This document shows, piece by piece, positions 2,445 through 57,603 of a stretch of 64,000 bases of DNA. The notes below the pieces were generated by a model. The model had not been told where the DNA came from. It did not search any database and saw only the letters and a program-made list of their open reading frames with translations. The translations under genes and the position numbers were made by a program. Within the stretch, counting starts at the first letter, position 1, and each line of letters opens with the position of its first letter. This stretch comes from a virus: IMG/VR virus record IMGVR_UViG_3300045988_167652. One strand, given 5' to 3'.

Positions 2445-2798
2445 ATGAATACACCAATTAGCAATTTAACTAAAGAACAAATTGAAAAGCCATCCATTCC
2501 TTTTACAGTAGAAGAATTAAAATCATTAGGATTTGAACAAAACAAAAAGCATATAAATTTCTATTTCAAATAGGTATCTTTAAGATTATATTAGGGAGAT
2601 ATATGTAATTTTATATCTATATCTATAGAAGAAGATAATTATGTTACTATAGCTTTTACTACAGATAGAACACAATATTTAGTAGCATTTCAAGGTAAAT
2701 TATTATATTTTGAAGATTTTGAAAGAATGTTTTTTAATTTTTTCTTTAAAGAAAGGGATTAGAAAATATATAAAGAATTAATTACATATAGAGATTAA
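2445..2798 (+). CDS. Hypothetical protein (117 codons with TAG as sense; 42 codons under the standard code)
   Basis: ATG at 2445. In-frame TAG at 2571, 2592 and 2760. TAA at 2796. I hand-translated it, and coding-like composition continues past each TAG. Confidence 0.45.
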
Positions 2799-2811
2799 AA
2801 ATATATAAACA

Positions 2812-3198
2812 ATGAAGAAAATAAAAGAATTTTTTGTCAGGTGGTATGATTGGTTTTGTAATGAATTTACTACAGAAAATTCATATTTATATCAAGAATG
2901 TTATGAACATCTTGAACCTAAAATTACAGAAGAATCTACTAAAGAAAATAAAGAAATAAATGAAACAGTTACTAAAGAAATTATTGATCCTGTTAGAGAA
3001 AATAGCAGAAAAAAGAGCAATAAAAAAAGGAATACCCCCTCAACAGATAATAGAGAAAAGCAGAAAAAAAGCGAAGAAAATGAGGCAGAAAATATTCTGC
3101 AAAGCGTGGAAAGCAATGAAACAGTCAGAAAGAAGACTGAAAGAAATGGAAGAAAAAAGTTGAAGGAAAAATCCCTAAAGAAGAAGATTATAGAGTAA
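2812..3198 (+). CDS. Hypothetical Lys/Glu-rich protein
   Basis: 128-aa TAG-free ORF. The C-terminal half is low complexity and is overlapped by open alternative frames (see findings). Confidence 0.45.
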   Translation: MKKIKEFFVRWYDWFCNEFTTENSYLYQECYEHLEPKITEESTKENKEINETVTKEIIDPVRENSRKKSNKKRNTPSTDNREKQKKSEENEAENILQSVESNETVRKKTERNGRKKLKEKSLKKKIIE

Positions 3199-3266
3199 AA
3201 GTAGCTGAAAAAAGAAAAAGATTAAAGAATAAAGGTGATACTAAATAAGAATAAAAACTATGTTTT

Positions 3267-3494
3267 ATGTTAGAAAAATTAGATATTCACACTATAAAAC
3301 ATAAACTTTTATCAGAAAGGTTTAATGATGAGCCTGTATATTATTGTACAAGATGTTTATCATTAAAGATAAGAGGAATGAGGGATATAGAATACTGTGA
3401 TTAGTGTGGATCAGTAAATATAGCTATTACTAATATCTTTGATTGGGAAGATAGATATAAAAGAAAGTATAAACATAACTTTATAGAACATTAA
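3267..3494 (+). CDS. Small zinc-ribbon protein (75 codons)
   Basis: Hand translation MLEKLD...YYCTRCLSL...EYCD[TAG]CGS... The two CxxC knuckles are complete only if TAG 3402-3404 is a sense codon. Confidence 0.55.
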
Positions 3495-3511
3495 ATATAT
3501 ATATTTTAAAG

Positions 3512-3802
3512 ATGGAAAATGTAAAAGTAAAAAAGGAAAGTAATGAGGAAGTAAAAGAAAATAAGAAACTTTCTTATGAAGAACTAAGTAAGTATGCTTC
3601 ACAACTCGTTGATGTGAATAATAAGTTGAAAAATGCTTTACAGGAAGCTCTTAATGATAGTTTTATGAAAAGGATTGATATTCTTTTCATGGTTCTTAAG
3701 TATAAAGAACTCTTTGGAAGTGATTTTACTACTATGTGTGTAGAAGAACTGAAAGAGATTATTACTATTAATAGAGAAGAAGAGCCTACAGAAGATAAAT
3801 AA
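3512..3802 (+). CDS. Hypothetical protein (96 aa, helical and acidic)
   Basis: Intact TAG-free ORF in the rightward operon, ending in TAA. Confidence 0.6.
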   Translation: MENVKVKKESNEEVKENKKLSYEELSKYASQLVDVNNKLKNALQEALNDSFMKRIDILFMVLKYKELFGSDFTTMCVEELKEIITINREEEPTEDK

Positions 3803-3809
3803 GAATATA

Positions 3810-4232
3810 ATGAGCCAGAATAATAAAAAAAAGAATATGAATATAGTTTACATGCCAGTAAATTCTGAAGAAGATTTTTATTATTACTGGCTCGTATTCT
3901 TAAAACCTTTTCATCCTCTTGTTAATAAGGAAATGATTATTGCTGCTGAATTTCTTTATCAAAGACAAATACTTAGTGAAGTTATATCAGACCCTGAATT
4001 AGTAGATACAGCATTATTATCGAAAGATATAGCTGAAAAAATTAAAGAAAAACATCAATTATCAGATTCTTATTATAAAGTTATTATATCGAATTTTAGG
4101 AAAAACGGATTTCTTCAAGATGAAAAAGTAAATCCTAAATACATACCTAACAGAGAATTTGGAGAGAAAACTTTTCAACTTACTTTTCACTTTGATTTAA
4201 GAAATGTAGACAAGGATAAAAAGTTACAGTGA
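3810..4232 (+). CDS. Hypothetical protein (140 aa)
   Basis: Intact TAG-free ORF ending in TGA. Confidence 0.6.
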   Translation: MSQNNKKKNMNIVYMPVNSEEDFYYYWLVFLKPFHPLVNKEMIIAAEFLYQRQILSEVISDPELVDTALLSKDIAEKIKEKHQLSDSYYKVIISNFRKNGFLQDEKVNPKYIPNREFGEKTFQLTFHFDLRNVDKDKKLQ

Positions 4233-4551
4233 TGCTGGAGAATGTTTTATAAGGGCAGGTAAAGAATTAAATTTAAATGAGGATAAAGTAAAAGAATATT
4301 CATTACTTATATTTAAATGTATAAGAGAAGTATTTGATGAATTTTACAGTAATCCTGATAATTATGATGAATTTAATAAACACCCTATAGGATTTAGTTT
4401 CATTAAATTTGGAACTTTTTTTATTAGTAAAGATAAGATGTTAAGACTTAATTTCCTACATAAACCTGCTGAAACAGATGTAAAACAAACTCTTAAAGAG
4501 ATAAAAAGGAAGATCAAAAAAGATAAACAATCTAAAGAAGAAAACATTTAA
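4204..4551 (+). CDS. Hypothetical protein (115 codons) beginning ATG-TAG
   Basis: The open frame 4204-4551 has protein-like sequence (...ECFIRAGKELNLNEDKVKEYSLLIFKCIREVFDEF...IKFGTFFISKDK...). Its only upstream ATG (4204) is immediately followed by TAG (4207). It overlaps the preceding gene by 29 nt. Confidence 0.45.
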
Positions 4552-4564
4552 AAATTAAAATATT

Positions 4565-5032
4565 ATGTATAATATAAAGAAAGTAAGACCCATGTCCAAT
4601 ATGCTTATTGCTACTATGAATAAATCTGAAGACCTTGAATATGCTTCTGGTAGTACAAGTATTATTGATCCTACTTCAAATACAAGGGGAGGTATTAAGG
4701 AAATTCAAAAAGTAATAGCTGTAGGACCTATGGTTAGAACCATTAAAGAAGGAGACACTATTCATATTAATTTTTCAAGATATGCCGTAAAGAAATATGC
4801 TCCAGATACTTTAAAAGGTAATATGGATGAACTTACTAATCAAATAACAGGATATAATTTAAATACGATTATACTTGATGGAAAAATGTGTTTAGTATTA
4901 TTCGACAGTGATATTGATTTTATTGTAGATGATTATGAAGAAATACATAATCCTATAATAGATAAACCTGAAAAAACTAAACTTATTACTCATCCTGAAG
5001 ATATTAGGAGAACAAGTAATCTAATAAATTAA
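4565..5032 (+). CDS. Possible GroES/gp31-like co-chaperonin
   Basis: 155-aa TAG-free ORF. The pattern V-R-P-M-x-N-x-L-I ... GGI ... VIAVGP ... EGDTI ... D-x-DI-x-FIV resembles the Cpn10 fold signature. Confidence 0.45.
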   Translation: MYNIKKVRPMSNMLIATMNKSEDLEYASGSTSIIDPTSNTRGGIKEIQKVIAVGPMVRTIKEGDTIHINFSRYAVKKYAPDTLKGNMDELTNQITGYNLNTIILDGKMCLVLFDSDIDFIVDDYEEIHNPIIDKPEKTKLITHPEDIRRTSNLIN

Positions 5033-5076: not shown

Positions 5077-5637
5077 ATGTAGTTATTTAAATATGAGAAC
5101 TATCAAGTATCATTCTCTCCTTATATAATCAGCATTAAAGCCTTTAGAAACATTATAAATAAGGATAAAAGTAAAGATAAGGATAAAGCCATATCTCTTT
5201 TATCCTTTATTTATTTTTATGTTGATCCGAGAAGTGATTATATGTATTTGATAGATAAAGAATCAAGGTAGAAATTAATATGTGAACATTTAGGGTTACC
5301 TGATAACATCTTAAAGGATAAAGATTTGTAGGAAGCTATTAGCGTATATAAAGAATTAGTTCATACTATATCATCAGACTTACTTTATACCACTAAGGAA
5401 TTGATATCAAAACTTTAGCAATAGCTTAAAAGTATAGATATTAATGAAAAGGATGATAAGGGTAAGTTGGTTTATTCTCCTTAGCAGATAGCTAAAACTA
5501 TTAATGAAGTACCTGAATTAATAGAAACTCTTAATAAAGTATAGAAAAAAGTATTCCAAGAAATTCAAGATAATGAAAACATCAGAGGAGACCAAGAACT
5601 TGCAGTCCTTGAAGATGGTGTACGATAGAAAGATTAA
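5077..5637 (+). CDS. Hypothetical protein directly upstream of TerL (small-terminase position), beginning ATG-TAG
   Basis: Hand translation of 186 codons with several in-frame TAGs, including TAG-CAA-TAG at 5416-5424. ATG 5077 is followed by TAG 5080. TAA at 5635. Confidence 0.5.
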
Positions 5638-7915
5638 TGAAGTCAATTCTTAGATAACGGAAGAATTACTAAGTGTTTTATCGGAAGAATATAGAGAAAT
5701 ATTCTTTGATATGATAGAACATGTACCTTTTATAAGAAATTTAATAGCTAAAGATAGAAAGAAAGCAAAAGATTTACCTAAAGATGATAAAGGAAGAATT
5801 ATAGTAGATATATGTAATCCTCATATACTTGAAGATATGGATTACTTTAGACCTGCTGCTATTTTTTTTGAAAAACATGGTTGTTATACTAAGTTAAAAC
5901 CTAATTCAAATCCTAATTCAGATTTTAGAAAATGGTTGGATGAAGAAGTAAGAAGAATACTTGAAGGATATGTTAGACCTGATGGTGAATGGGTTACAGG
6001 ATTAATGTATTTTTATATGAACTATTGTCCTATTATGGTTCATAAGAAAGACAAATCAGGTAAAAAATTAAATCGCATGGAAGGATTTCCTGATTGTTGG
6101 GATAGTGCATATTTAATTACTCATTATCTTGATTAGGCTCTTGAAGGAGGTATTTATAACGATTTTAAAGGAAATGAACATGCAGGATTAATAGCTAAAC
6201 GTGGGTTAGGAAAAAGTTATTTATTATCCGCTATTTTATCAAGATTATTTAAGGTAGGTAAAGATTCTGAAGTTACTAAAGATACATTAGGTACTATAGT
6301 AGCTAACGGTAAAACATATCTTCAAAATGTAAACTCAGGAACACTTCCTAAATACACTAATATTATAGACTTCTTAGATGTACATATGCACTTTCCCAGA
6401 TTAAGAATTAAATCTTCTTTATCAGATATGTAGTGGTAGTTAGGATATAAAAAGTCCGGTTCAGATGTTCTTTATGGTACAAGAAATGCTACTTTAGGAT
6501 TAAGTATTACAGATGATCCTGATAAAGTCAGAGGTAATCGTTCTATGGCTTTATTATATGAAGAATTTGGTACTATAGATAATTTTCTTACAGCACTTAA
6601 CACTTCAAGATATAATGTGGAAGATGGTGATTATTTGTTTGGTCAGATATTCTTTTTAGGTACTGGAGGAACTAAAGGTAATTCATTTATAGGGGCTTAG
6701 GAAGTAATTTATCATCCTAAAGGATATAAAGTTTATTCTTTACCTAATGTATTTGATAAAGAAGGTAAAGGTAAGGGGGAAAGCATCCTTTTTATGGGAG
6801 CTTATATGTCAAGAAAAGGATGTATAGATGAAAATGGTAATAGTGATGTTATTAAAGCATTGGTTTAGGTACTTAAAGACAGACAAACTACTAAACAAAA
6901 TTCATCAGACCCTTCTACTATTGCATAGAAAGTAGCTGAGCTTCCTCTTACTATTCAGGAAGCCATATTAACAGCGGAAAGAAATAAATTCCCTGTTAAA
7001 GATATATCTCAGGCTCTTAGAGATTTATTGGAATCGGATATATTAAATAATACTTACAATGCTGATTTAGTATTTGATAAACAGAAAGTAATATGTGTTC
7101 CTTCTTCAGAATCTCCTATTATTTATTTTCCTCATAAGACTAATAAATTAGTAGGATGTCCTTAGATATTTGAAATGCCTTAGAAAGATTCAAAAGGTAT
7201 TATTCCTTCAGGAAGATATATTATAGGTAATGACCCTGTGGATGATGATGAATCAGAAACACTATCATTAATGAGTTCATTTGTACTTGATTTATGGACT
7301 GATATTATAGTAGCAGAATATACGGGAAGACCTTCAACCACTAATGAATATTATGAGAATTTAAGAAAGTTAGCATTATTTTATAATGCTACTATTATGT
7401 ATGAAAATAATAAGAAAGGATTATATGCTTATATGTCTATGATGAATTGTGTTTATCTTTTAGCTGATACTCCTGACTATTTAAAAGAAAAAGATTATAC
7501 TAAAACAAGTACTAATAACACTACTAAAGGATATTATGCTTCTTAGCCAGTTAAATCTTATGGAATGAGATTAATTAATCAGTGGCTATTAAAACCTTAT
7601 ACTGAAATAATCGAAGGAATAGAAATAACTAAACCACTGCTTTATAAATAGCCTTCAATTCCTTTATTTTAGGAATTATCTTTATGGAATCCTGATGGTA
7701 ACTATGATAGAGTATCTGCTCTTATAGGATTAATGCTTTACAGAGAATAGAAATTAATGATGTTAAGAGGTAAAGACCCAAGTAGTATGTATAATGATGA
7801 CAGTAATTCAATTATGAAAGATGATTTTATTATTAAAACACTAAACAAAATGAATAGAAAACAGTCTTTAGGATATTTGGATGGAATGAATTATTTACAG
7901 TTAATGAATAGATAA
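5615..7915 (+). CDS. terL: Terminase large subunit
   Basis: Track fragments 5711-6136 and 7238-7546 share one frame, and I hand-joined that frame across about a dozen TAGs. Walker A-like AKRGLGKS, acidic nuclease-type segment GNDPVDDDES, TAA at 7913. Start uncertain (ATG at 5573, 5615 or 5711). Confidence 0.85.
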
Positions 7916-8018: not shown

Positions 8019-10361
8019 ATGAATTACAAATCCTTTCCAAGATAGAATCTTTCTTATAAGAAAAAAGATAAATAGTGGAGAAAAGATCATTTAGATTGGG
8101 CGGAATCTAATGGTTATTTTTATAATTCTTCTGTAAGAAAATCAAGAAGGAATAAGATTATTAATCGTAATCTTATTGATGGTATCATACACATGGAAGA
8201 TGTAATAAGTATTCTTAATCCTTTAGGAATAACTGATTCTTATAATCCTGAATAGATATAGCATTATCCTGTTATCAATTCAAAACTTAATCTTTTAAAG
8301 GGAGAAGAATCTTCAAGACCTTATGATTTTAGAGTAATTATAACTAATCCCACTTCAATTTCAGAAATTGAAAAAAGTAAGAAAGAAGAATGGAAATAGA
8401 GAATTATTCAGGAAGTACAAGACACATCAATTACTGAAGAATAGTTTAATCAAAATATACAAAGATTAGATCATTATTATAATTATGAGTGGAAAGATTT
8501 AAGAGAAATAAGAGCTAATGCTTTACTTAATCATTATACAAAAGAACTGGATGTTCATGTAAAGTTTAATGATGGTTTTTCAAATGCTCATACTTATGGT
8601 GAAGAAGTATATTTAATAGATATAGTAGGTGGAGATGTTTCTTTGGAAGTACTTGATCCTGTATATATTTCTACTTATGGAAATAGTAGAAGTAGTCATA
8701 TTGAAGATTCGGATATAATTATTATAGAATAGTATTGGTCTAAAGGAAAAATATATGACACTTATTATGATATTCTTTCAAAAGCAGATATAAATAAACT
8801 TGAAAGTAATAAATATGATAGATTATCTAATTATTCGGATCAAGTAGGTATTGATATGCAGGGAGCTATTATAAATAGTCTTGAATTATTTTCAGATAAT
8901 TTCAGCGCTGAATATGAAGATAGTGATGGTAATATTAAGGTACTTAGATTATTTTGGAAATCAAGAAGAAAAATTAAAAGAGTAAAAAGTTATGATTAGT
9001 TTACAGGAGAAGAAATATATGATTTTTATCCTGAAGACTATGTTATTAATGAAGATTTAGGAGAAACTGAAGAAATATATTGGATTAATGAAGCATGGAG
9101 AGGAACTAAAATAGGTAAGGATATTTATGTAGATATGAGACCTTGTCCTGTATAGTTTAATTCCTTAACTAATCCTTCAAGATGTCATTTTGGTATTATA
9201 GGAGAATTGTATAATGTAAATGGAGGAAGACCTTATTCTTTAGTAGATATGATGAAGCCTTTATCCTATTTTTATGATATAGTTCATTATAAATTAAATG
9301 AAGCTATTATTAATAACTGGGGTTCAATTATGACTTTTGATAAGGCTAAAGTTCCTGATAATATGGGATTGGAATAGTGGTTATATATGATTAAAGCGCA
9401 TCATATTAAAATAGAAGATAGTTTTAAAGAAGGTAATATAGGAGCAGCTACAGGTAAATTGGCAGGATATTTAAGTCAAGGAGAAAAATCTTTACTAAAT
9501 GCGGATAATGGATAGTATATAGGTTATCTTTAGAATGTACTTGCTTACATAAAACTTGAACTTCAGGAATTGGTAGGTATTACTAAACAAAGAGAGGGTC
9601 AAATATCTAATAGGGAAACTGTAGGAGGAGTTGAAAGAGCTACTTTACAATCTTCTCATATTACTGAATGGTTATTTATTAAACATAATAACTTAAAGAA
9701 AAGAGTTCTTGAAGCTATTCTTGAAACAGCTAAAATAGCCTTAAGAGGTAGAAAATATAAGTTTTTATATATCCTTCCTAATGGTATTGAAAAATTAATA
9801 GAGATTGATGGGGATCAATTTTCAGAACATGATTATGGATTAGTAGTTGAAGATGATAGATATACATAGGAATTAAAAGGTAAGATAGATACTTTGGCTT
9901 AGGCTGCTTTACAAAATCAAACTTTATCCTTTTCAACTATTTTACAATTATATACTAACAGTTCATTAATGGCTAAACAAAGATATATTGAAAGGGATGA
10001 ACAGGAAAGAAAACAAGAATCTCAGAATATACAATAGCAGCAAAATGAACTTGCATAGCAGGAATTAGCTCAAAGAAAAGAACAGGAAGAATTAAGAATG
10101 CAGTTTGAAGATTAGAAAAACATAAGAGATAATGAAACTAAACTTATGATTGCTAAACTTAATAGAGAATCTATACTACATGATAATGAAGATAATTATA
10201 ACCCTGATAATTTATCTAAAGAAGAATTAATGGAAAAAATAAGACAATTTGACACTAAAATGAAATTTGAAAACAAAAAGCTTGATTAGGAAAAACAATT
10301 AAAATTAAAAGAATTAAGTCTTAGAAACGATAAATCTATTGATAATTTAAAAAGTAAATGA
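8019..10361 (+). CDS. Portal protein
   Basis: 780 codons in a single frame. I hand-translated the N-terminal ~140 codons and 8940-9640. Portal-like core ...GITKQREGQISNRETVGGVERATLQSSHITEWLF... Located immediately after TerL. TGA at 10359. Confidence 0.8.
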
Positions 10362-10458: not shown

Positions 10459-12327
10459 ATGAATATCTTTTATGGACATAACAAGTGTGAACAAGATAAG
10501 AAAATATCTTGTTTAAAGAGTTATACACAGTGGTTATTATGTATTTCAGAAAGGGTTAAAGATGTACTGATGGAAAGAAATTTAATGACTGAGTAGGAAG
10601 GATATGAAAAAATGCCTTCAATTATCGGTAGAGCATTAAATAATATGAATTAGAATCCAACTCCTAATCCTAATTAGAAAACTGAAAAACCGCTTACTAT
10701 TATTCCTTAGTTTAATTCTTCTTAGAATGAATTAATATATGATGAACCTAATACAGTTTATACTCCTGTAAAAATCATTAAAGATAATAATCTTATTTCA
10801 CAGAATATAATAAAAGGAGTGACTATTTATGGTGTTACAGGTACTAAGGAATGTAATGGAGGGGGTGGAGGAAGTACTTGTCCTGATACAAGTACTTTGA
10901 CTATTCCTTTGAATTTAATGCATTATAAGACATTCAATGCTCCTCCGGGTATAGTATTTAATAAAGTACTTCTTGATGCGAGTTATTATGAAAATACTAC
11001 TGTGCAGGCAGGTTCAAAATTAAATGGTATTTATATGAACTGTACTGTTCCTACAGGTTCTAATCCTCTTAATCTTCAAACATTAGATATATATAATAAT
11101 ACTTTTTAGGATAGTGATATTGTTAATTCTCCTTCAGGAACTGCTTACAATAAAGTAGTAAACCATATTCCCAAATATATTAATCAGCAAGTTACTTCAG
11201 GAAGTACTTTAAATGGTTTATATATTAATTGTACTGTTCCTTCAAACGGTGGTGGAGGTACTCAACCATAGATTAATGTTATTCCATATAATAAAACAGT
11301 AACTTCAAAATCATAGTTACCTAATAATGAATAGGCACCTTCAGGTTCAGCATACAGTCCTATTACTGTAAGTATTCCTGATACTCATGATATTTATAAT
11401 AAATCACAAGTACTTACAATAGGAAGTCTGCAAAATACAAGTGCTGTAGAACCCCATGTTCTTGAAGGATTTACTTTTTATATGAAGAATCATGCTAATC
11501 AATTAAAATTTAAAACAGGTTCTATTCCTAATTGTGGTAATGTAGAACAGCAAGCACCATTTGAAGCCAATAATTGTTATTTTCAACATATAAGAATTAC
11601 TGGTAGTGGTGGTGGAGGTTCTGGAAATGAAAATCCTATAAGTAAGTCAAGATTTAATTTACTTGCTACTGATGGAAGTAATATAGGAAATGAGATTTTA
11701 GTATTAAGTAAAGAATAGTTTATTGCTAATCCTTCTTTTTTATATGCAGGATTTACAATATCGGTTTAGGGTGGAACTTATTTTTTTAGAGTGTAGGGAT
11801 TTAGTATTGGTTTAAATAAAACTATATTTTCATCTTATTCAAATAATATAGTATATCCATCAAATAATGATGCTTTCAAATTGGATAATAATCCTTAGGC
11901 AAGTTTGACTTCTTCAAAAACAGGATTAATACAATCTTTATGGTGGATGTCTAATTTTGGAAGACTTAATCCTCCTGAAGGGGAATATGCAGTATTTAAT
12001 AGTGTTCCATATAAAGCTATTCAAAGTGGATACAATTTATTAAGTGCTTATGAATGGAAAGCATTAAATACTTATTTTATAGAAGGAAATTAGGAAAATA
12101 TATGGGATTATTTAGAAAATATTCAGGATTCAAGAATAGGACTTTCATGGAATAATGGTAGAATATGGACTACTACCCCTGTAATGCATGGAGGATAGTT
12201 AAAGGTATGGTCTGCCAGTATAGCAGGTAAAAATGGAGTAAGTTTACATATTGAAAACATGAATACTTAGCTGTTAGGTGTTGATGCTACTAAATATGTT
12301 TCCATATCTCTTTATGATGGATTATAA
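10459..12327 (+). CDS. Tail-fibre or receptor-binding-type protein with internal repeats and poly-Gly linkers
   Basis: Track fragments 10819, 11482 and 11905 share the frame of ATG 10459. Repeated LNG[IL]Y[MI]NCTVP units, GGGG[ST] linkers, TAA at 12325. Confidence 0.6.
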
Positions 12328-12347
12328 TATATAAATAAAATATTAAT

Positions 12348-12737: not shown

Positions 12738-12738
12738 T

Positions 12739-13866: not shown

Positions 13867-13891
13867 TTCATATTAAAATAGAAAAATAATT

Positions 13892-17098: not shown

Positions 17099-17124
17099 TA
17101 AATATTAATCAATAATTAAAAGTT

Positions 17125-17586: not shown

Positions 17587-17600
17587 AAATTTAATTTGTC

Positions 17601-19556: not shown

Positions 19557-19558
19557 TT

Positions 19559-25762: not shown

Positions 25763-25764
25763 CT

Positions 25765-48800: not shown

Positions 48801-51800
48801 AAATTTGAAGAATCTCTATAGAAACACTGTTGAAAATAATAAAGGTATAAACTATCATCAAAGAGCGTTAGATTATATAAGTAAACATTTCCTGAATGTT
48901 CCTTTCTTTAGTATATAGAAAAATAAAAAACAATTCATTTTATCAAGATGGATTAGAGAACTAACTGAAAACAATGAAGAAGGCCAAGATTTAAGAGATA
49001 ATTTAAAAATCAATACCATTATTTCACATAATAGGAAAGATTTTAGTGATCTGGATGATGTGGAAAGAGTATTATTATAGCTTGCTGAATATTTTAATAG
49101 TGGAAATAAAGATGAAGCTAAATATGCTAATTTTGTATTACCTGCATTAGGTGATGCCTCATAGCCAAGAAGTATTACATTTAAAAGAATAAATGATATT
49201 TAGCAGGGAGATAGATTAGTAACTACTAAAGAACAAGTAATTCAAGAATTAATTAATACGGTAATACAAGAAATTAATCGTATTAATCAGACTAATCAAA
49301 TTGAAGGATTGGATATAGCATACTATAAAAATAATGCCGCTAAATTTGTATTTTTCCCACAGCTTAATAAAACCATAAAAGAAATATTATCAAAAGAAGA
49401 AATTGAATCTTTAGGACTTACTAAACATCAAGATAAAACTGTACTTGAATTAAAAACTAAAGAGAAATCAACATTCTTAATTCAATTCTTTGATAATTAC
49501 TTAACCAAAGGATATGAAAAATGGGATAATACATAGAAAGAAAGAGGATTATATGATAGTCCTAAATTTCAAGCTATCAAACCTACTTTAGGAAACCTTG
49601 AAAATTTCTATTATAATTATGTATTTGCTTAGACATAGTTACCATAGTTACTGATAACTGATTTAGCATTTGTAAAAGACCCTATTGATTATCAAAAGAG
49701 ATTAAAAGCTACTATTAATGGTACAAGTAGTTCAAATACTTCTCCTTATTTTTCCGATGAAGTAAACGAAGTAAAGAAAGATAATGAAATGGCTGTAATT
49801 ACTCTTAGTGATGTTAAAGTAGATACTAATACTTTTCTTAATTCTACAGGAGTAATTAAAGCATTAAAGAGAAATCCTAAACTATCGGACATAGATATTA
49901 GAAATATATTAAGTAAATTTAAGGGTATTACAGCTACTGATGGACAGTCTTTTGTTACTCTTGATTTTATTAAAAAGATAATGCAGTCTGATGGTGAATG
50001 GACTGATATGATGTAGCAAAGTTATGATAATCTTGTATCAGGAAACTGGGATATGAATGACTTTGATTAGTTCTATCAGGCAAGAAAAGCTATGTATAAT
50101 GGAACTAATGTTCATGAGTTTACTTTAAAAGATGGAACTAAAACTACTATTAGAGTTCCTTCTTATCATAAATATTCGGAATATGTTTTACTTGCAATGT
50201 ATGGAGCATTTTCATAGACAGTACTTGGTGAAAACAGTTCTATGGCTGCTATTAATAAATTTATGGTTAAGAATAACATAGACTTGTGTATGTTTGAAAG
50301 TGCCGGTAAAACAGGTAATCAAAAAGTAGTGGATATTAGTGGGTTTGAAGAATTGTCAGAAGATGAAAAAGAAACATTCCTTAATGATAAAATCCTTAAA
50401 ACTAATAAAATTAAATTAGTTAGTATGGATAATTATGGTATGTAGTAGTCAAATCCTGAACATTTATATGATAACCATAGAGAACTTAGTACATAGTTAA
50501 AAAGAGCTATTATAAGCAATATTCCTGAAGATGCGGAATTTACTTTACAGAATGGTCAAAAACTAAATAAACAACAGTTTGTAGAATTATATTATGCTAC
50601 TTTATTATCGGAAAAAATAGATAATTACACAGCTAATTATGATAAACTGACTGATATGAATGCTATGTCTAAAGAATTAATATCTTAGGCACTTAGTGAT
50701 AAAGAATCTTCTATTGACGATATTAAAAAACTGACTTATAATCCTTCTACAGGAAATTTTGCTATTCCTGTAGGTGAACCTCTAAGTGGTTCAAAGTTTA
50801 TGTCTAAGTATTGTTCGTTAGTAAGAAATAAAGTTATTCCTAACAGTACTGAAGGAGGTTCAATTGTTTAGGTAAGTAATTTTGGATTTATAAAAGATAA
50901 AAACTTACAGGTAAAATATAAAGAAGGACAAGACAAATCCATTGAAAATATAGAATATATAGGATGTTATATGCCTATGTATACTAAGAAATTATTTGAA
51001 AAATATATGGATGATGAAGGTAATGTAGATATAAATAAAATGCCTGATAATGTAAAAAAATTAGTAGGTTATCGTTTACCTTTTGAAGATTTTTATTCCT
51101 TACTTCCCCTTAAAATAATTGAATTTTTACCTGAATCTTCAGGTTCTTCAATTATAATGCCTGCCGAATTACTTGCATTAACAGGTTCTGACTTTGATAT
51201 TGATAAATTATATTTAGTAGTACCTTAGTTAAATAATGAAGGAGATAGAGAAGAATATGAGATAAATATGAATGATTTACAAGGTAGTATTCTTACTATG
51301 ACTAAAGGATAGAGAAATAACCTTTTACTTGATTTAATCTATTCAAGAGCCACTCATCCTACTTCATTAGAAAGAATGCTTAATGGAGGTGAATTTGAAG
51401 ATTTAAAAACTGCTTCATTACTTACTTAGATTCGTAAAATTCCTAATATAGATAATATATTAATGAAAAAATGGAATATAAGTAAGATATCTCATTTATA
51501 TAGAAAATTATATTCTTTAGAACAGGACGAATTAAAAAGTATATTAAATGAATATAAAGAACCTGTTGATTGGTTTGATCCTGAAACATTCATTTATTTT
51601 AATAACTTAAATCATGCAGCTGCTGTGGCTATTGCTACTTTTGCTAATGCTAAAAGTAATGCTCACTTGCTTCCTGAATTTATTCCTCATGAACCTTTAA
51701 GCATTAATATGGGTAAAGAAAAGATAGATAAAGTACTATCAGAATCAAAAAACCCAAAAATGATTATTAAAACTAATGATGGAGAAGTACCTTATTGGTT

Positions 51801-54800
51801 TACTATTACTGAAACAGTGGATAAAAACGGTAAAGTAGATTCAAAAACTCATATATTCAATGAGATTAATGTACCAGAATCTTTAGACATATCCAAATAT
51901 AAAAATACAGTTCATGCACTTGCAGAATTAATTTCAGCTGCTGTAGATGCTGTAAAAGACCCTGTATTGTCATTCTTAAATCTTACTAAAGAACTAAATA
52001 TAATAGCTCCCATGCTTATTAGATTAGGTATGTCTGATAAAATGATGGGATTATTTATGACTTAGCCTGTTATTGAATATATCATTAAAAAAGCGTCCTC
52101 GAATAATAGATTAAGTATGAATCAAATCATATAGAATGTATTATATGATTTAGATTCAAAGATAGCTCAAATTGAAAGTTAGAATCCATAGAATGATAAT
52201 AGAAATGTATTTATGGATACTGAAAGTATGATTGGACATACAGGTAAAACTAAAGAATTAGAATAGTTATTAGAGAATAATAATGAATAGGAAAATAATA
52301 TATACCAAGAAGATAATTTAATAAATTCTTCGGATAATTTGTTCTTCTTAAAGAAATAGTTGAATGTATTATATGTATTTAAAAATATATATGCTAAAGC
52401 CAAAACATTAAATGAATATGCTGTAACACATAAACCCGATTCAAAAAGCTCTATGGCTAGAGGTTCTTTATTTGATAATATAGCTAAAAAAGTAAGAAAA
52501 GAAAACTTAGTAAAAGAGTTAGGTAAACACTTTGCTAATATACCTATATTACAAGATACATTTAATAAAGATATAATTACACCACCCTCAAAAATTGCAG
52601 GTGATAATTATGGTAAATAGATGAAAAAGTATAAAGAATAGATGCTTAAATACTTTATGAATCAAGATTTACCACTTGTACAAATGGATTATACTTTAGG
52701 TATTCTTGCGCCTATTTACTTTAATATAAATAGATTTCCACAGCTTAGAAAGCAATTTTCTTATATAGTAGATGAAATTAGTAAACAATCTAAAAATAAT
52801 CTTCTTTCAAGACAGTATGCTGAACAGGTTTATAAAATGTATTATACATATTTACTTAGTGAACCTACTAATGGATTACTTGGAGGAAAAGAAATTAAAC
52901 CTGCATTCTTAGATAAAACTTTAAATACTTATGAAGATAAAAGACAGTATTATTTAAATGGATTTGTAAAGAATCTACAAGAATATAAAAGAGCTAAAAT
53001 AAATAAACTTCCAGCTGATAGAAGAAATGCAAGAAATTCATCTTTTATTAAATTATTAGCTCCTTATAATAAAGGTATAATATTAAAAGGATAGGGTACT
53101 GCAAGAGTAGATAAAAGAGATATGCTTAATGCTGATTGGGCAAATCTTATGAAAAGTGATGTTGAATTTGAAAGAAATTTAGCAAGGGATATATTTATCT
53201 ATGAATTATTTAAGAATGGAGCTGGTTATACTCCTAATGGTATATTACAATATGCTCCTATGGAAGTTATCAGTAGTATAGAAGGATATACTGATATAGC
53301 TTTAGATAATTCCATACTCGATAACATAGAAAATGATGATACTTACGAAGAGTTCTTAAATATATATGTAAGAAATAATTTAAGGACATTTGCTTAGGTT
53401 ATTCCTGAACATGAAAATCATTATTTTAAAGATGCAAACGGATATAAACCTACCTTAAACACTGAAAATTTATCCACTACTTTTTATAATAGTGAATATA
53501 AAACCAAATATATTTAGATAGGTTAGGGAAATAATGCCGTATTCTATAAACTAAATTATGATATTGATCCTTTTACAGTAGATATTATAGATAGAGGGTA
53601 TGAAAAGATCACTCCTTTAAATATGTAGTATCAATATGGTAATCCTAATGCAGTAGCTATTGATAATACATTAAAACAAGCTGGATAGAGTTCTTTAAGT
53701 ACTATGAATGAAGAAGAATTATCTATGCTTGCAGGTATGAATGATCCTTTTGAAGATGCTGATATGATGGAATAGATGGCTGCTATGCAGGCTATGGAAG
53801 ATAAATTATTTAGAGAATAGAATAATAAACAGTAGGAAAATACAGAAGATACTAATATTAAAGAAGTAGAAGAAGTATCTAAATAGATAGATAATATCTT
53901 AGGTAATACTACTAAAGTAGTATCTACATTAGAAGAAATTGAAAAATTAAAAGAAATAAAAACAAAGAAAGTAACTTTAGAGATACAACCATTTATACAG
54001 GATGGTAAGGTATTCTTTAAAATTATTCCTGTACAAAGAGGTATATAGAACTCTGTATATTTTAATGTAAGATTAGGAGAACTTCAAAATGGTATTAGAG
54101 CAGCTGATAAATTAATGGAATTTGCTTCTCAGAATGATATTTCTGTAGAACAACAATTACAAAAGGATTTAAATGCTAATGGTACTGTTACCTTTATTAA
54201 TGATACTTCAAGTAAGATAAAAGCTATTGTTTAGATAGCTAAAGAAAGTAATCTCGAACAGTTTATTAATAGGTTAAGCGAAGAATTATCTCATGCTGCT
54301 ATAGCCTTTTCAAGTAATGAAGCCTATATTAATGAAATTATTTCACCTCTTCAAAATGATATTGAAATGGTTAAAGAAATATTAGGAGATGAATATGATA
54401 ATTATTATTAGATTTATAATGGTAATGAAAGATATTTAGCTCTTGAAGCATTAGGAAAAATAGTGGGTGAAGCTACAGGAGGATTAATATCTCAAGGAAC
54501 AAATATCAAAGGAAGTGTAATAGGTAGAATAATGTCTATTATAAAAGATAAATTCAGAGGATTAAATGAAGAACAATTAGTTATTATTTCTTAGATATTT
54601 AAGGATGATTCTCCTATTGTAAGAGATATGATTAATAATTTATTAGGAGAAATTAATGGTACACTTGCTTCAGAAGTTATGAAAGATATTCCTATGTAGA
54701 TGTATTAGCTTAATTAGAAAATAAGTCTACAAGAATAGAAACATAATATAGCTTTAAAAGCTATTAATGATTTAATTGATGCCGAAATAAAACGAATTAA

Positions 54801-57603
54801 TATTATTAAAGTTACAAAATCAAGTGATATTTAGGATACTTAGGAATTAAACAGGCTTATTAAAGCAAGAAACTCTTAGGAAACTGTTAAAGGTATTCAT
54901 ACAAGAATAAAAGAACTTAATAATGTTCTTAGAGGGCATTTATACAGATTAAAAGAGTTAATATAGAATCAGGATGAAAGGGATGAAATAAGTGCTAAAT
55001 CTTTAAGAAATATGAGAGATACTTTAATAGCCTATCAAAAACAAGTAGATATTATAAGAGAATTTGATATAGAACTTGAAGGATTAAGTGATGAAGAACA
55101 AATAGAAATAAATAATGAATTAAAAGAAATTATAGCTGATTGTGAAGAAGTTTTGAAACGTTCTTTTAATTACTGGAAAAAGATATCCAAAGCTAAATTT
55201 ATGTCTTTTGTAGGTAAAATAGTTCCTGAAGGAGTAGTAAGAATGATGAATAAAATAGATGGTTCTACTAATACTTTAGAAGATTATGTATTTACAGCTA
55301 ATAGGGATATTTCTTTTTATGATAGATGGTTAAGAGCAGCTGGTGATAGTAGAGATTTTGTAATTAGATTATATGATGATATATTAAAAAGAGCTTAGAT
55401 TAACAGAGTTCATAAATCTTAGGAATATAAAAGAAAGATAACAGCTTTACAAATAGAACTTGAACAATCTACAGGTAGTTCAGATACTTCATGGATGTAT
55501 GAAAAGAATGCTAAAGGAGAAATAATAGGATTTATTAGAGAACTTGATTATACTAAATATGAAAAAGAAAGAAAACAGGCTATATTAGATATTTATAGTA
55601 ATACAGATGATCCTAAAACAGCATCGGATTTAATTAATAAATGGGTAGTAGAACATACTGAATTGGATGAAAATAATATACAAAAACCTAAAAGATCGCT
55701 TTATGGTAATCCTATATTCGATAATTTATCCGAAGGATAGAAAAAGTATTATAAATCCATTATAACCCTTAAAAAATTAATGGATGCAACTATGAAACTT
55801 GAACCTATTTAGTATTATAAACCTATTTACATTTCAAACACTATGACATAGAGATTAAAGAATACTAAGAGTGTTTAGGATGTAAAAGATATAATGAAGA
55901 GCTGGTATGATACTAATATAGGAATAAGAAAAGATGACACTGATTATAATAAAACAGTTGCCGTAATAAAAGATTTTGAAGGAAATGTGGTACAAACATT
56001 ACCTAAATTCTTTACTTCTCCTTTAGAAAATCTTAAAGATGTTTCTACCGATGTTACTTCAGCTATGATAGCCTATGCTGATACAGCAGTTAATTTTGAA
56101 GTAATGGAAGAAGCTGTGGGATAGATGGAACTTGGTAGAATTGTTCTTAGAGACAGAAAGATTTCAGAAACAAAAGATGATAAAGAATTAGTAAATAAGA
56201 TTAAACTTTCAGGTTATAATATCATTCAAAAAGTATTTAAGAAAACATCCAAATCTAATTTTGAAGCAAGATTAGATGACTTTATGGAAATGAATGTTTA
56301 TAATCATTATTATAAGGATGAAGGTAAGGTAGGTTAGTTATTAAATACTTTAGGTACAGTTACAGCTATTAATGGTTTAGGAATTAATGCTATTGCAGGT
56401 ATATCTAACTTATTTACTGGTGGAGCAATGTTTAATATTGAAGCTCTTAGTAATAATCATTTTAAACCTAAACATGGTATAAAAGCAGATAATATTTTCT
56501 TTAAAAATTCATTTGCTTTAATAGGAGATGCCGGCAAAAGAGTAAAAACATCAAAAATAGCTTTATTCCTTGAACATTTTGATGTTTATCAGGATTATAC
56601 CGAAAACATAAAAAATAGTAATGTAGGAACTAAGAATTGGTTACTTAGAAATATTGGATTAGATTCTATGTTTATCTATAATAAATTAGGTGAAACTTGG
56701 TTATAGGCAAGAGTACCTTTAGCTTTAGCAGTAGCTACTGAATTAATAGATAAAAATGGAAATAAAATAAGTCTTTGGGATGCTTTAGAAGTAGTAGAAA
56801 CTAAGAATGATGAAGGTAAAGTTATTTCTTCAAAACTTCAATTTAAAGATGAATATGAAGGATTAGATGGAAAAAAGCCTGATGAAATTATAGCTGAAGT
56901 TATGAGAAAAAGTAATAAAATCAATAATAATTTGAATGGTATTTATCATAAACAAGATATATATGCAGCTTAGAAATATTCAGTTGTAAGAATGGGATTT
57001 ATGTTTAGAAAATTCATATTACCCGCTCTTGAATATAGATATAAAGGACAGACTTATAACTTTGACTTAAATAAAACTACTGAAGGATTTTATCATACTA
57101 TATGGAGACTTAGAAAAGACATTCTAAAGAATAGAACAAATTTACTTGTATTTTATAATAGTCTTGAAGATTATGAAAAGGCTAATATAAATAAAGCATC
57201 TATAGAAGTATTACAAGTATTTATGATATGGTTAGCTATAGGACTTATAGGTAAAATTGATGGTGATGATGATGATGATAAAGCTTATTTAGCAAGAATA
57301 ACCGAATTACAATTAAGAAGACTTTATACTGAAACTTCAGTGTTTACTCCTTCTACAGGAATGATTAATGAAGGTCAAAGAATACTTAAATCACCCGCTG
57401 CTTCAGTTAATACATTAGATAATATGTTAGGATTACTTGAGCTTCTTGATCCAAGAAGTTATACTACTGAACTTAAATCAGGGAGGTATAAAAGACATTC
57501 AAGAGCTTATAGAGCTATTGACAGAAATTTACCTTTTAAACGTCATATATATAACATAGTAAATCCTGAATTATTATTACCATTCTATAAACAAGAATAT
57601 TAA
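45892..57603 (+). CDS. Giant 3903-codon ORF containing the crAss-type virion RNA polymerase domain
   Basis: 17 track fragments (46210 ... 56992) all share the frame of ATG 45892. I hand-checked gaps 46530-46909, 48150-49309 and 53397-55012 and found only TAG. Catalytic-type motif GSDFDIDKLY (DFDID at 51190-51204). TAA at 57601. Confidence 0.8.

What the first reader, a model, noticed from the sequence alone, without database searches (positions are those of the whole stretch)
2445..57603. TAG is a sense codon throughout the 55-kb rightward (virion/late) block
Under the standard code this block is shattered into short ORFs. The fragments are collinear and in the same frame: 17 fragments for 45892-57603, 6 for 30623-36271, and 4 each for 13892-17098 and 40435-45870. 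In every gap I hand-translated, the only interrupting triplet is TAG. Reading through TAG gives full-length TerL, portal, MCP (TAG at 22491, 22518, 22638, 22875), fibres, a tail hub and a giant polymerase. Every one of the ~36 rightward genes I call ends in TAA or TGA, never TAG. This matches amber-to-Gln recoding reported for some crAss-like and other gut phages. It changes every annotation in the window.
Basis: partly seen in the sequence, partly recalled or inferred. Interest (0 to 1): 0.85.

Follow-up and report, generated by a model that had tools for sequence, protein, structure and literature searches.

The report
CrAss-like phage reading TAG as glutamine

Summary
On the + strand from 2445 to 57603, 34 tiled genes hold 326 in-frame TAG codons and no in-frame TAA or TGA. 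All 34 end in TAA (28) or TGA (6). ORF coverage of the block rises from 39% under code 11 to 98% with TAG as sense.

Against seven standard-code Steigviridae genomes, the residues opposite TAG have the same profile as those opposite CAA/CAG. Gln is 25% versus 29%, and Gln is the best-fitting amino acid by a wide margin. Twelve TAG positions are invariant Gln. In two relatives 94-96% identical in DNA, 41 of 55 differences at TAG codons are TAG<->CAG/CAA.

A tRNA with anticodon CUA lies at 2341-2413, 32 bases upstream of the first late gene. The ten minus-strand nucleotide-metabolism genes (57674-63864) have no TAG.

This matches the late-gene TAG-to-Gln recoding already published for crAss-like phages, so it is a new member of a known kind.

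Refinements:
- Seven of the 34 genes are TAG-free, and the capsid gene trio is TAG-poor.

In passing: a close relative, and three other phages, carry the tRNA(CUA) gene split by a group-I-like intron with an HNH endonuclease gene. Standard tRNA finders miss these genes.

The parts
2229..2301 (+). tRNA with anticodon CAU (Met-type), next to the suppressor tRNA
   Evidence: ARAGORN; Rfam tRNA 54 bits; also present in relative L090
2341..2413 (+). Suppressor tRNA with anticodon CUA and loop CUCUAAA. Intron-less allele, 32 bases upstream of the first late gene.
   Evidence: ARAGORN, where 'Pyl' is only its label for cta. Rfam tRNA 68 bits. Cloverleaf fold. Identical copy in relative L089; intron-split copy in L090.
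2445..57603 (+). Recoded late block of 34 genes with 326 in-frame TAG. All stops are TAA or TGA.
2812..5032 (+). Run of small genes with essentially no TAG: 2812-3198, 3512-3802, 3810-4232 and 4565-5032. The only TAG is codon 2 of 4204-4551.
   Evidence: homologues upstream of TerL in cr108_1
5573..7915 (+). Large terminase, 13 TAG
   Evidence: tblastn 43-47% identity over 91-95% of the protein to annotated Steigviridae TerL
8019..10361 (+). Portal protein, 18 TAG, 7 of them at positions where all six aligned relatives have Gln
10459..19556 (+). Tail fibre or appendage genes (10459-12327, 12348-12737, 12727-13866, 13892-17098, 17125-17586, 17601-19556), 65 TAG in all
   Evidence: Position between portal and lysis genes as in relatives. 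Only 13892-17098 has a partial hit, to a Kolpuevirus hypothetical protein in the fibre region. Function inferred.
19541..20980 (+). Lysis cassette (19541-20215, 20230-20589, 20573-20980). TAG is 7 of 17 Gln-type codons, the block average.
   Evidence: Homologues annotated as lysis regulator, holin and L,D-carboxypeptidase. Pfam DUF6549 and DUF5675. Codon counts.
21158..22342 (+). Acidic 394-aa protein upstream of MCP (scaffold-like, inferred). TAG-free: 0 of 11 Gln codons.
   Evidence: also TAG-free in both close relatives despite 30-43 synonymous changes
22407..23909 (+). Major capsid protein with 4 TAG, all in the first 157 codons
   Evidence: tblastn over residues 2-500 to crAss-like MCPs at 46-50% identity; Pfam Crass_capsid on the public gene call
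23983..25017 (+). 344-aa protein downstream of MCP (homologues annotated 'dsDNA-binding domain protein'). TAG-free: 0 of 11.
25034..30572 (+). Tail barrel and hub genes: ring 3/4 (25034-25762, 25765-26538), auxiliary capsid protein (26590-27516), tail hub A (27623-28207), tail hub B (28200-28445), ring 2 (28453-29136, TAG-free), basic protein (29182-29904), ring 1 (29913-30572)
   Evidence: Pfam CrAss_Ring_3_4, crAss_AuxCP and crAss_THA on public gene calls. CrAss_Ring_2 and CrAss_Ring_1. Naming follows PMC10172136.
30623..36271 (+). Muzzle protein, 1882 aa, 31 TAG
   Evidence: Pfam crAss_MUZ 782 bits and crAss_MUZ_C
36294..40423 (+). Cargo proteins 1 (36294-38342, 17 TAG) and 2 (38369-40423, 16 TAG)
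   Evidence: Pfam crAss_CARG1 and crAss_CARGO2
40435..45870 (+). 1811-aa protein homologous to 'putative RNA-polymerase subunit' genes of relatives, 42 TAG
   Evidence: tblastn to cr85_1, cr111_1 and others
45892..57603 (+). 3903-aa giant RNA polymerase ORF with 76 TAG. Collinear with two adjacent genes of cr111_1 (gp033 RNA polymerase and gp034 subunit). Contains SDFDIDK, a DxDxD-type motif.
57674..63864 (-). Standard-code-compatible block of ten convergent genes (pyrophosphatase, polynucleotide kinase/ATPase, Fe-S oxidoreductase, nucleotide kinase and unknowns). 0 TAG; stops are TAA or TGA.
   Evidence: Fisher test 0/18 against 326/777, P = 1e-4. About 25 further early genes in relatives are also TAG-free.
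1..2228 (.). AT-rich stretch with no convincing ORF upstream of the tRNAs. Holds two copies of AAGTAACCCRACGTCT at 1732 and 1999.

Best explanation
The window is about two thirds of a roughly 92-kb crAss-like phage genome related to Steigviridae. The genome is written in two dialects.

The convergent minus-strand block of nucleotide-metabolism and replication genes contains no TAG. An unmodified host translation system can therefore read it.

The 55-kb plus-strand block holds packaging, virion, lysis, cargo and virion RNA polymerase genes. There, 42% of glutamine positions are written as TAG and termination uses only TAA and TGA.

Decoding is done by the phage's own tRNA(CUA) at the head of the block (2341-2413). 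I infer that the host glutaminyl-tRNA synthetase charges it with glutamine.

Late proteins therefore cannot be completed until enough suppressor tRNA is present, which ties their translation to the infection programme. This is the published 'code switch' model.

One ORF carries 76 TAG codons, so read-through per codon must be close to complete. The host factor that terminates at TAG (RF1) must therefore be outcompeted or disabled. How this happens is not visible in the sequence.

Shown here: TAG is sense; TAG corresponds to Gln; the tRNA(CUA) gene exists; the two blocks differ in TAG use. Inferred: which enzyme charges the tRNA, the timing, and the fate of RF1.
For: 1. TAG is sense. There are 326 in-frame TAG against 0 TAA or TGA in 17,945 codons. 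Coverage is 39% under code 11 and 98% with TAG as sense.

2. Proteins are full length. They are collinear and syntenic with seven standard-code Steigviridae genomes, and alignments cross the TAG positions. Pfam crassvirus families match along the whole length.

3. The amino acid is Gln.
- 803 cells opposite TAG are 25.3% Gln. Cells opposite CAA/CAG are 28.7% Gln.
- The log-likelihood for Gln exceeds the next model (Lys) by 232 units, or by 35 with one cell per position over 175 positions.
- Among positions with a clear majority residue, 24 of 51 TAG positions and 37 of 67 CAA/CAG positions have Gln.
- Twelve TAG positions are invariant Gln in all aligned relatives.

4. Microevolution. Against L008 (96.4% nucleotide identity) and L009 (94.1%), 17 of 23 and 24 of 32 differences at TAG codons are TAG<->CAG/CAA. 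These include 16 two-base TAG<->CAA exchanges. The single apparent TAG/TAA case was an alignment artefact.

5. The decoder. tRNA(CUA) scores 68 bits against Rfam tRNA. It is conserved at the same place in both relatives. It has U1:A72 and the D-arm GGUGUAAUGGUUARCAC. In the 346 tRNAs gathered here, those two features occur together only in tRNA-Gln and in phage tRNA(CUA).

6. Block structure. Gln-type codons that are TAG: 0 of 18 in the minus block against 326 of 777 in the plus block, P = 1e-4. About 25 tiled early genes in the relatives are also TAG-free.

7. Precedent. 243 crAss-like phages, mostly Beta, Delta and Zeta groups, reassign TAG to Gln or TGA to Trp, mostly in late genes (PMC7886860). 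The code-switch model is in 10.1101/2021.08.26.457843. [quoted passage not shown]
Against: - There are no peptide data for this phage.
- The tRNA's isotype is not settled by sequence. Its best overall match is a tRNA-Trp(CCA) of Clostridium phage D-1873 (75-81% identity), and mean identity does not separate Trp, Gln and His.
- The discriminator is A73 and pairs 2:71 and 3:70 are not G:C. The tRNA therefore lacks several elements that E. coli GlnRS uses (my own knowledge of E. coli, which may not apply to the unknown host).
- No release factor, aminoacyl-tRNA synthetase or RF1 inhibitor was found in the window or in about 21 kb of early genes of relatives. About 14 kb of the relatives' genomes was not examined.
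- The host, and hence the host's own genetic code, is unknown.
- Seven late-block genes do not use TAG at all. The 'switch' cannot gate those.
Confidence: 0.93

Rival explanations
1. TAG is a sense codon but stands for another amino acid. Trp is one candidate, because the tRNA body resembles tRNA-Trp and its anticodon loop is one base away from CUCCAAA. Lys and Glu are others.
For: The best BLAST hit of the tRNA is a tRNA-Trp(CCA), and a crAss phage tRNA-Trp is also among the top hits. Glu and Lys are the next most frequent residues opposite TAG.
Against: - Trp is opposite TAG in 2 of 832 cells, 0.22 times background.
- The Lys and Glu models are worse than Gln by 232 and 305 log units. Their slight excess is the usual substitution pattern of Gln, and CAA/CAG positions show it too.
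- In close relatives TAG exchanges with CAG/CAA and almost never with TGG, AAA or GAA.
- From my own knowledge: an E. coli tRNA-Trp with anticodon CUA (su7) is itself charged largely with Gln, so a Trp-like body does not argue for Trp.
Confidence: 0.02
2. TAG is read through by the host (a host-encoded suppressor, or a host lineage that lacks RF1 or uses TAG as sense). The phage tRNA(CUA) would then be dispensable and there would be no temporal switch.
For: The host is unknown. Many recoded phages have no detectable suppressor tRNA. No RF1 countermeasure was found.
Against: - The early block avoids TAG completely: 0 of 18 in the window, P = 1e-4, and about 25 genes in relatives. That is pointless if the host already reads TAG.
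- The tRNA(CUA) gene is kept at the same place in all three genomes. One of them keeps it even though an intron must be removed first.
- Published hosts of TAG-recoded phages use the standard code.
Confidence: 0.04
3. The TAGs are artefacts or mark decay: sequencing or assembly errors, or a defective phage full of nonsense mutations.
For: None beyond the fragmented look under code 11. Public records in NCBI nr, IMG and MGnify do list truncated MCPs of 323-400 aa.
Against: - Only one of the three stop triplets occurs in frame: 326 against 0 and 0.
- The positions are shared by independent assemblies.
- Synonymous changes outnumber non-synonymous ones in most genes when TAG is counted as Gln.
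- TAG positions coincide with conserved Gln.
Confidence: 0.005

Closest known systems
TAG-to-Gln (genetic code 15) recoded crAss-like phages of the Beta (Steigviridae), Delta and Zeta groups (Yutin et al. 2021, PMC7886860; Borges et al. 2021, 10.1101/2021.08.26.457843; Peters et al. 2022, PMC9523058)
   Same: In-frame TAG confined to the late structural, lysis and RNA polymerase block. Early block compatible with the standard code. Phage-encoded tRNA(CUA). Low G+C content. TAG not used as a stop. The code differs between near relatives: here L010 uses TAG, L013 uses TGA, and the others use the standard code.
   Different: - This lineage is at most 50% identical in MCP to any GenBank phage genome searched and has 26.6% G+C.
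- TAG makes up 42% of Gln-type codons in the block.
- Lysis genes are not TAG-enriched here (7 of 17, the block average), unlike the bias Borges reported.
- The capsid trio 21158-25017 is TAG-poor (4 of 38).
Standard-code Steigviridae/Asinivirinae: crAss001-like Kehishuvirus, DAC15, IAS virus, cr85_1, cr108_1, cr111_1, Kolpuevirus
   Same: Gene order and content: TerL, portal, fibres, lysis, MCP, rings, hubs, muzzle, cargo, RNA polymerase. Identities are 27-51%.
   Different: They have no in-frame TAG. Their RNA polymerase is split into two genes where this phage has one 3903-aa ORF.
[quoted passage not shown]
   Same: A stop codon reassigned in late genes, with suppressor tRNAs.
   Different: They are unrelated lineages. 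Some also carry RF2 or RF1 and tRNA synthetases. None was found here.
Classical E. coli amber suppressors that insert Gln: supE (tRNA-Gln CUG to CUA) and su7 (tRNA-Trp CCA to CUA, charged with Gln). From my own knowledge; Borges et al. also note that TAG suppressors are glutaminylated.
   Same: A CUA anticodon with U35 directs glutaminylation. The tRNA here has U1:A72 like tRNA-Gln and an anticodon loop one base away from tRNA-Trp loops.
   Different: Those suppress at modest efficiency alongside RF1. Here 76 TAGs in one ORF demand nearly complete read-through.
Group I introns in bacterial tRNA anticodon loops, such as cyanobacterial tRNA-Leu(UAA). From my own knowledge; relevant to the side observation only.
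   Same: Insertion in the anticodon loop after a U and before AA. The core has the P3-[P4-P6]-P7-P3'-P8-P7' order.
   Different: These sit in phage suppressor tRNA(CUA) genes and carry an HNH endonuclease ORF. Rfam's group I model scores only 11.5 bits.

Membership tests
Phage with TAG-to-Gln reassignment (genetic code 15) in late genes | Conserved genes interrupted only by in-frame TAG, never TAA or TGA, and restored to full length when TAG is read as sense | tested here: met
   326 TAG, 0 TAA, 0 TGA in 17,945 codons. Coverage 39% rising to 98%. Full-length alignments.
Phage with TAG-to-Gln reassignment (genetic code 15) in late genes | TAG positions correspond to glutamine in standard-code homologues | tested here: met
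   25% Gln, 6.8-fold enriched, the same profile as CAA/CAG. Best model by 232 log units, or 35 with one cell per position. Twelve invariant-Gln positions. TAG<->CAR exchanges in close relatives.
Phage with TAG-to-Gln reassignment (genetic code 15) in late genes | TAG not used as a terminator | tested here: met
   0 of 34 plus-strand and 0 of 10 minus-strand genes end in TAG. Caveat: in four genes the last TAG lies 3-12 codons before the TAA/TGA, so termination at that TAG cannot be excluded from sequence alone.
Phage with TAG-to-Gln reassignment (genetic code 15) in late genes | Phage-encoded suppressor tRNA with anticodon CUA (common but not universal in the family) | tested here: met
   2341-2413; ARAGORN and Rfam 68 bits; conserved in relatives
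Phage with TAG-to-Gln reassignment (genetic code 15) in late genes | The suppressor tRNA is a glutamine acceptor | tested here: inconclusive
   U1:A72 and the D-arm match tRNA-Gln. Overall similarity is highest to a tRNA-Trp. Charging cannot be tested with these tools.
Phage with TAG-to-Gln reassignment (genetic code 15) in late genes | Two-block genome: early genes compatible with the standard code | tested here: met
   0 TAG in ten minus-strand genes, Fisher P = 1e-4. About 25 early genes in L142 and L140 are also TAG-free.
Phage with TAG-to-Gln reassignment (genetic code 15) in late genes | Peptides with Gln at TAG positions | not testable with these tools
   Needs proteomics. Done for two other crAss-like phages (PMC9523058).
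Phage with TAG-to-Gln reassignment (genetic code 15) in late genes | The host uses the standard code | not tested
   The host is unknown and no CRISPR-spacer or host search was possible.
Crassvirales (closest to Steigviridae) | Crassvirus signature proteins: MCP, portal, TerL, paralogous ring proteins, tail hub A/B, muzzle, cargo proteins, giant virion RNA polymerase | tested here: met
   Pfam Crass_capsid, CrAss_Ring_1/2/3_4, crAss_AuxCP, crAss_THA, crAss_MUZ, crAss_CARG1, crAss_CARGO2. TerL, portal and RNA polymerase by tblastn.
Crassvirales (closest to Steigviridae) | Placement inside the family Steigviridae by phylogeny or shared gene content | not tested
   All the best GenBank hits fetched are Steigviridae/Asinivirinae at 46-50% MCP identity, with conserved synteny. 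No tree was built, so family membership is likely but not shown.
Group I intron (side observation in relatives, not in the window) | 5' exon ends in U, intron ends in G, and the core has the P3-[P4-P6]-P7-P3'-P8-P7' topology with covariation | tested here: inconclusive
   The boundary rule is met in four cases. The P3-like and P8 helices each have four covarying pairs among four sequences. However, Rfam Intron_gpI scores only 11.5 bits, E = 1.6, and P1 with its guide sequence was not identified.

The most novel reading that the evidence does not exclude
In this phage lineage the whole code switch hangs on one tRNA(CUA) gene, and that gene is the preferred landing site of a dedicated homing intron.

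The window carries the intron-less allele, with all five anticodon-stem pairs rewritten relative to its 94%-identical relative. That relative has the same gene split after U35 by a 1044-nt group-I-like intron encoding an HNH endonuclease. The same intron family occupies the same site in at least three unrelated phage tRNA(CUA) genes.

If these introns self-splice, two things follow:
- Suppressor supply, and so late-gene translation, would depend on RNA splicing in those phages.
- Intron-split genes are invisible to default tRNA finders. They could account for part of the long-standing puzzle of recoded phages 'without' a suppressor tRNA.
Probability: 0.5. Interest if true: 0.6.

Novelty: new member of a known kind. 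Interest (0 to 1): 0.3.

Why it matters
Practical value. Under the standard code 60% of the late block looks non-coding, and every large virion protein is shredded. Public records of this same lineage in NCBI nr, IMG and MGnify list MCP fragments of 323-400 aa instead of 500 aa. Annotating it with TAG = Gln is therefore necessary.

Scientific value. It adds a low-G+C, heavily recoded lineage to the known set of TAG-to-Gln crAss-like phages. 42% of Gln codons in the block are TAG, and one ORF holds 76 of them. This sharpens an open question: such density requires near-complete suppression, yet no RF1 countermeasure is encoded in what was examined.

The phenomenon itself would not surprise a specialist.

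Tried and rejected
- DNA-level search of GenBank phages found only a 276-bp match to IAS virus. There is no close deposited genome, so I used protein-level comparison.
- Naming the tRNA by similarity failed.
  - A pattern search of 185,579 prokaryotic genomes for its D-arm and T-loop returned mostly tRNA-His of CPR bacteria, plus 3 tRNA-Gln.
  - BLAST against phages put a tRNA-Trp on top.
  - Masked-anticodon identity does not separate isotypes.
  - Only the discrete features U1:A72 plus the D-arm point to Gln.
- The apparent 'window TAG = relative TAA' site at 19392, and a TAA at 25472 in L009, were checked. The first is a local misalignment, because the relatives' ORF runs to the same C-terminus. 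The second lies in a highly divergent stretch and is probably the same kind of artefact.
- I asked whether the TAG-free state of 21158-22342, 23983-25017 and 28453-29136 is general among recoded crAss phages. The only other TAG-recoded locus at hand (L010) has 3/18, 0/10 and 1/10, so there is no support beyond this lineage.
- I looked for lysis-gene enrichment of TAG, as Borges reported. It is absent here (7 of 17 against 42% overall).
- I searched for release factors and tRNA synthetases in the window's early genes and in 20 early proteins of relatives. None was found.
- Pfam gave nothing for TerL, portal, the 1811-aa protein or the 3903-aa protein. Their identity rests on tblastn to annotated relatives.
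- Rfam did not recognise the intervening sequence in L090 as a group I intron at useful significance.
- A single-protein search for the HNH ORF found only itself.
- The sigma-70 promoter scan upstream of the tRNAs found no more sites than shuffles. One 11/12 match lies at 2122-2149.

Full report
**1. The observation**

The window has 26.6% G+C. Treating TAG as sense raises the summed length of + strand ORFs of at least 100 aa from 8,299 to 18,515 aa. The longest ORF goes from 396 to 3,908 aa. Making TGA or TAA sense instead has no comparable effect on that strand.

With TAG as sense, the + strand from 2445 to 57603 becomes 34 tiled genes that cover 97.5% of the block. In their 17,945 codons there are 326 in-frame TAG and not one in-frame TAA or TGA. 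Off-frame, the three triplets occur at 27.5, 69 and 34 per 1000.

All 34 genes end in TAA (28) or TGA (6). Same-strand ORFs of at least 60 aa cover 39% of the block under code 11 and 98% with TAG as sense.

The genes contain 76, 31, 16 and 42 TAGs.

**2. What the genes are**

The MCP aligns over residues 2-500 with crAss-like MCPs at 46-50% identity. The best GenBank hits are Steigviridae/Asinivirinae. No deposited phage is close at the DNA level.

I fetched the late regions of seven standard-code relatives: cr111_1, cr85_1, IAS virus, DAC15, a Kolpuevirus, cr108_1 and cr112_1. I then ran tblastn locally with every window protein, writing TAG as X.

- TerL, portal, the lysis genes, MCP, the ring, hub and auxiliary proteins, muzzle, cargo proteins and RNA polymerase subunits all align in the same order as in the relatives.
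- Pfam's crassvirus families confirm MCP, rings 1-4, auxiliary capsid protein, tail hub A, muzzle and cargo 1 and 2. Names follow the crAss001 structural atlas (PMC10172136).
- The 3903-aa ORF is collinear with two adjacent genes of cr111_1, the RNA polymerase gp033 and the subunit gp034. It contains a DFDID motif.

The minus-strand genes at 57674-63864 encode a pyrophosphatase, a polynucleotide kinase/ATPase, an Fe-S oxidoreductase, a nucleotide kinase and proteins of unknown function.

**3. Which amino acid**

Opposite the TAG positions the relatives have Gln in 203 of 832 cells. That is 24%, a 6.8-fold enrichment. The next residues, Glu and Lys, are enriched only 1.3-1.4-fold. Trp is at 0.22-fold.

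As a calibration, positions the window writes as CAA or CAG are matched by Gln in 28.7% of cells, against 25.3% for TAG.

- Scoring the residues opposite TAG under the empirical substitution profile of each of the 20 amino acids puts Gln first by 232 log units over Lys.
- With a single cell per position (175 positions) the margin is still 35.
- Where relatives have a clear majority residue, it is Gln at 24 of 51 TAG positions and at 37 of 67 CAA/CAG positions.
- Twelve TAG positions are Gln in every aligned relative, seven of them in the portal.

**4. Microevolution**

Two IMG/VR contigs of about 92 kb are 96.4% and 94.1% identical to the window over 21.5 kb. They share 91 and 81 of the in-frame TAGs. 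Of the codons where one genome has TAG and the other does not, 17 of 23 and 24 of 32 are TAG<->CAG or TAG<->CAA. Sixteen of these are two-base TAG<->CAA exchanges. The one apparent TAG/TAA pair was a misalignment.

The exact MCP, with Gln at the TAG positions, is on at least 8 contigs, and its 90% cluster has 41 members. Sequencing error is therefore excluded.

**5. The decoder**

ARAGORN and Rfam find two tRNAs just upstream of the first late gene. They are tRNA(CAU) at 2229-2301 and tRNA(CUA) at 2341-2413 (68 bits). The tRNA(CUA) is identical in relative L089.

Its isotype could not be settled by similarity.

- BLAST puts a clostridial-phage tRNA-Trp(CCA) first.
- A D-arm and T-loop pattern search of prokaryotic genomes returns mainly CPR tRNA-His, plus three tRNA-Gln.
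- Masked-anticodon identity does not separate Trp, Gln and His.
- The discrete features point to Gln. U1:A72 occurs in 11 of 19 tRNA-Gln, 0 of 11 tRNA-Trp and 0 of 25 tRNA-His collected here.
- The D-arm is that of the tRNA-Gln(UUG) of the related phage cr116_1.
- 73 other phage tRNA(CUA) genes in IMG/VR share these features.

From my own knowledge, even a tRNA-Trp carrying CUA (E. coli su7) is charged mostly with Gln. Either ancestry therefore fits the Gln signal. Charging by host GlnRS is an inference.

**6. Two dialects**

The ten minus-strand genes contain 18 CAA/CAG and no TAG, against 326 TAG among 777 Gln-type codons in the late block (Fisher P = 1e-4). In the relatives, about 25 further tiled early genes are also TAG-free, including DNA polymerase A and ThyX.

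This is the arrangement described for crAss-like and other alternatively coded phages. The literature interprets it as a translational gate on late genes.

No release factor or tRNA synthetase was found in the window or in those early genes.

The TAG counts constrain read-through. With 76 TAGs in one ORF, 99% read-through per codon would give only 47% full-length product, and 90% would give 0.03%. Competition from RF1 must therefore be almost abolished. How this happens is not visible in the sequence.

**7. Refinements**

TAG use is uneven. Seven genes holding 42 CAA/CAG codons have no TAG at all. The permutation mean is 1.6 such genes, P about 1e-4.

The three adjacent head genes are the acidic scaffold-like protein (21158-22342), the MCP and the 344-aa protein (23983-25017). 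Together they use TAG for 4 of 38 Gln codons against 42% overall (P = 2.5e-5). The two flanking genes are TAG-free in both relatives too, despite 23-43 synonymous changes.

One reading is selection against the recoded codon in the most heavily translated genes. This is a hypothesis. The one other TAG-recoded locus at hand does not show the pattern.

Lysis genes are not TAG-enriched here.

**8. Comparison and novelty**

Yutin et al. reported 243 crAss-like phages, mostly Beta (now Steigviridae), Delta and Zeta, that reassign TAG to Gln or TGA to Trp. The reassignment is mostly in late genes, and suppressor tRNAs are often present. Borges et al. formulated the code-switch model. Peters et al. 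gave proteomic proof for two crAss-like phages.

The present phage meets every sequence-level criterion of that class. It is a new, heavily recoded, low-G+C member, not a new kind of system.

One public gene-calling pipeline (Logan/ENA) already translates it in full. NCBI nr, IMG and MGnify hold truncated proteins for the same lineage.

**9. Side finding**

In the 94%-identical relative L090, default ARAGORN and Rfam find no tRNA(CUA). The gene is there but split. The 5' part ends ...CUCU at 5812 and the 3' part starts AAAACAGC at 6857.

- Joined, the two halves give a 73-nt cloverleaf tRNA(CUA).
- The 1044-nt insert carries a TAG-free 267-aa HNH endonuclease ORF.
- Its conserved core, CAGCGTGAACGACTWAACG - hairpin - GATGCGAWAGTCT, occurs in 11 IMG/VR contigs.
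- In four of them (L090, L220, L244, L247) it sits at the same point of otherwise dissimilar tRNA(CUA) genes.
- In these four, the 5' exon ends in U and the intron ends in G.
- A four-sequence consensus fold gives the group I order of helices, with covariation in the P3-like and P8 helices.
- Rfam's group I model scores only 11.5 bits.

The window's intron-less allele differs from L090's in all five anticodon-stem pairs and is otherwise identical.

Papers up to 2026 still list 'no detectable suppressor tRNA' as unexplained. None of those I read mentions intron-split suppressors.

Noticed in passing
L090:5778-6894 (relative IMGVR_UViG_3300006333_000007); also L220:2810-3870, L244 and L247: The suppressor tRNA(CUA) gene is split after U35 by an intervening sequence of about 1 kb. 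The insert carries an HNH endonuclease ORF and a conserved group-I-like core. The same element sits at the same site in four different phage tRNA(CUA) genes. Default tRNA finders miss these genes, which could explain some 'missing' suppressor tRNAs in recoded phages.
   Followed up: partly
window 2367-2371 / 2379-2383 compared with L090:5804-5808 / 6860-6864: The window's intron-less tRNA(CUA) has anticodon stem ATTCT/AGAAT. The intron-bearing allele of the 94%-identical relative has GCTGT/ACAGC. All five pairs differ while the rest of the tRNA is identical. Possible causes are co-conversion with the intron or escape from the homing endonuclease.
   Followed up: no
window 21158-25017, 28453-29136 and 2812-5032: Seven genes of the recoded block use no TAG at all. 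The three adjacent head genes (scaffold-like, MCP, 344-aa protein) use TAG for only 4 of 38 Gln codons against 42% overall. This is conserved in two close relatives but not seen in the one other TAG-recoded lineage at hand (L010).
   Followed up: partly
window 57674-63864 (- strand); L142 and L140: Early genes are poor in glutamine altogether. There are 18 Gln in about 2,014 residues (0.9%) in the window, and by my rough tally about 1.7% over 15 kb of early genes in a relative. The late block has 4.3% counting TAG, or 2.5% from CAA/CAG alone.
   Followed up: no
window 45892-57603: A single 3903-aa ORF corresponds to two adjacent genes of the relative cr111_1 (the RNA polymerase gp033 and the subunit gp034). 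It is a gene fusion here, or a split there.
   Followed up: partly
window 1-2228: A 2.2-kb AT-rich stretch with no convincing ORF lies upstream of the tRNAs and is conserved in both relatives. It holds two copies of AAGTAACCCRACGTCT (1732 and 1999; 0.02 expected by chance), each preceded by TATAAAATT. A sigma-70-like TTTACA-16-TATAAT lies at 2122-2149.
   Followed up: partly
window 4204-4209 and 5077-5082: Two genes appear to start ATG-TAG, so a recoded codon is codon 2. No alternative in-frame start is nearby.
   Followed up: no
L142:3272-5576 compared with L140:4273-6300: DNA polymerase A is split into two ORFs by an insert of about 480 nt in one close relative. It is intact (675 aa) in the other. 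This looks like another mobile insertion in this lineage.
   Followed up: no
public protein clusters of the MCP (P0001-P0015): The same MCP is stored as a full 500-aa protein in Logan/ENA gene calls. In NCBI nr (DAG97181.1, DAI34821.1), IMG and MGnify it is stored as 323-400-aa fragments. Those records were annotated with the standard code.
   Followed up: partly
L010, L013 (IMG/VR loci with 47-51% MCP identity): Among the nearest other lineages, one is TAG-recoded at low density (17 TAG against 118 CAA/CAG). One shows in-frame TGA instead. The rest use the standard code. The code therefore switches over short distances, as the literature reports.
   Followed up: partly
window 63156-63864 (- strand): A 90-aa ORF matches only the C-terminal part of nucleotide kinase profiles. 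It overlaps the end of the preceding 157-aa ORF in another frame. This may be a frameshift, or two separate genes.
   Followed up: no
L089 (relative IMGVR_UViG_3300011990_000001): ARAGORN calls the tRNA(CUA) but not the neighbouring tRNA(CAU) at the homologous place, although the region is 95.7% identical to the window.
   Followed up: no
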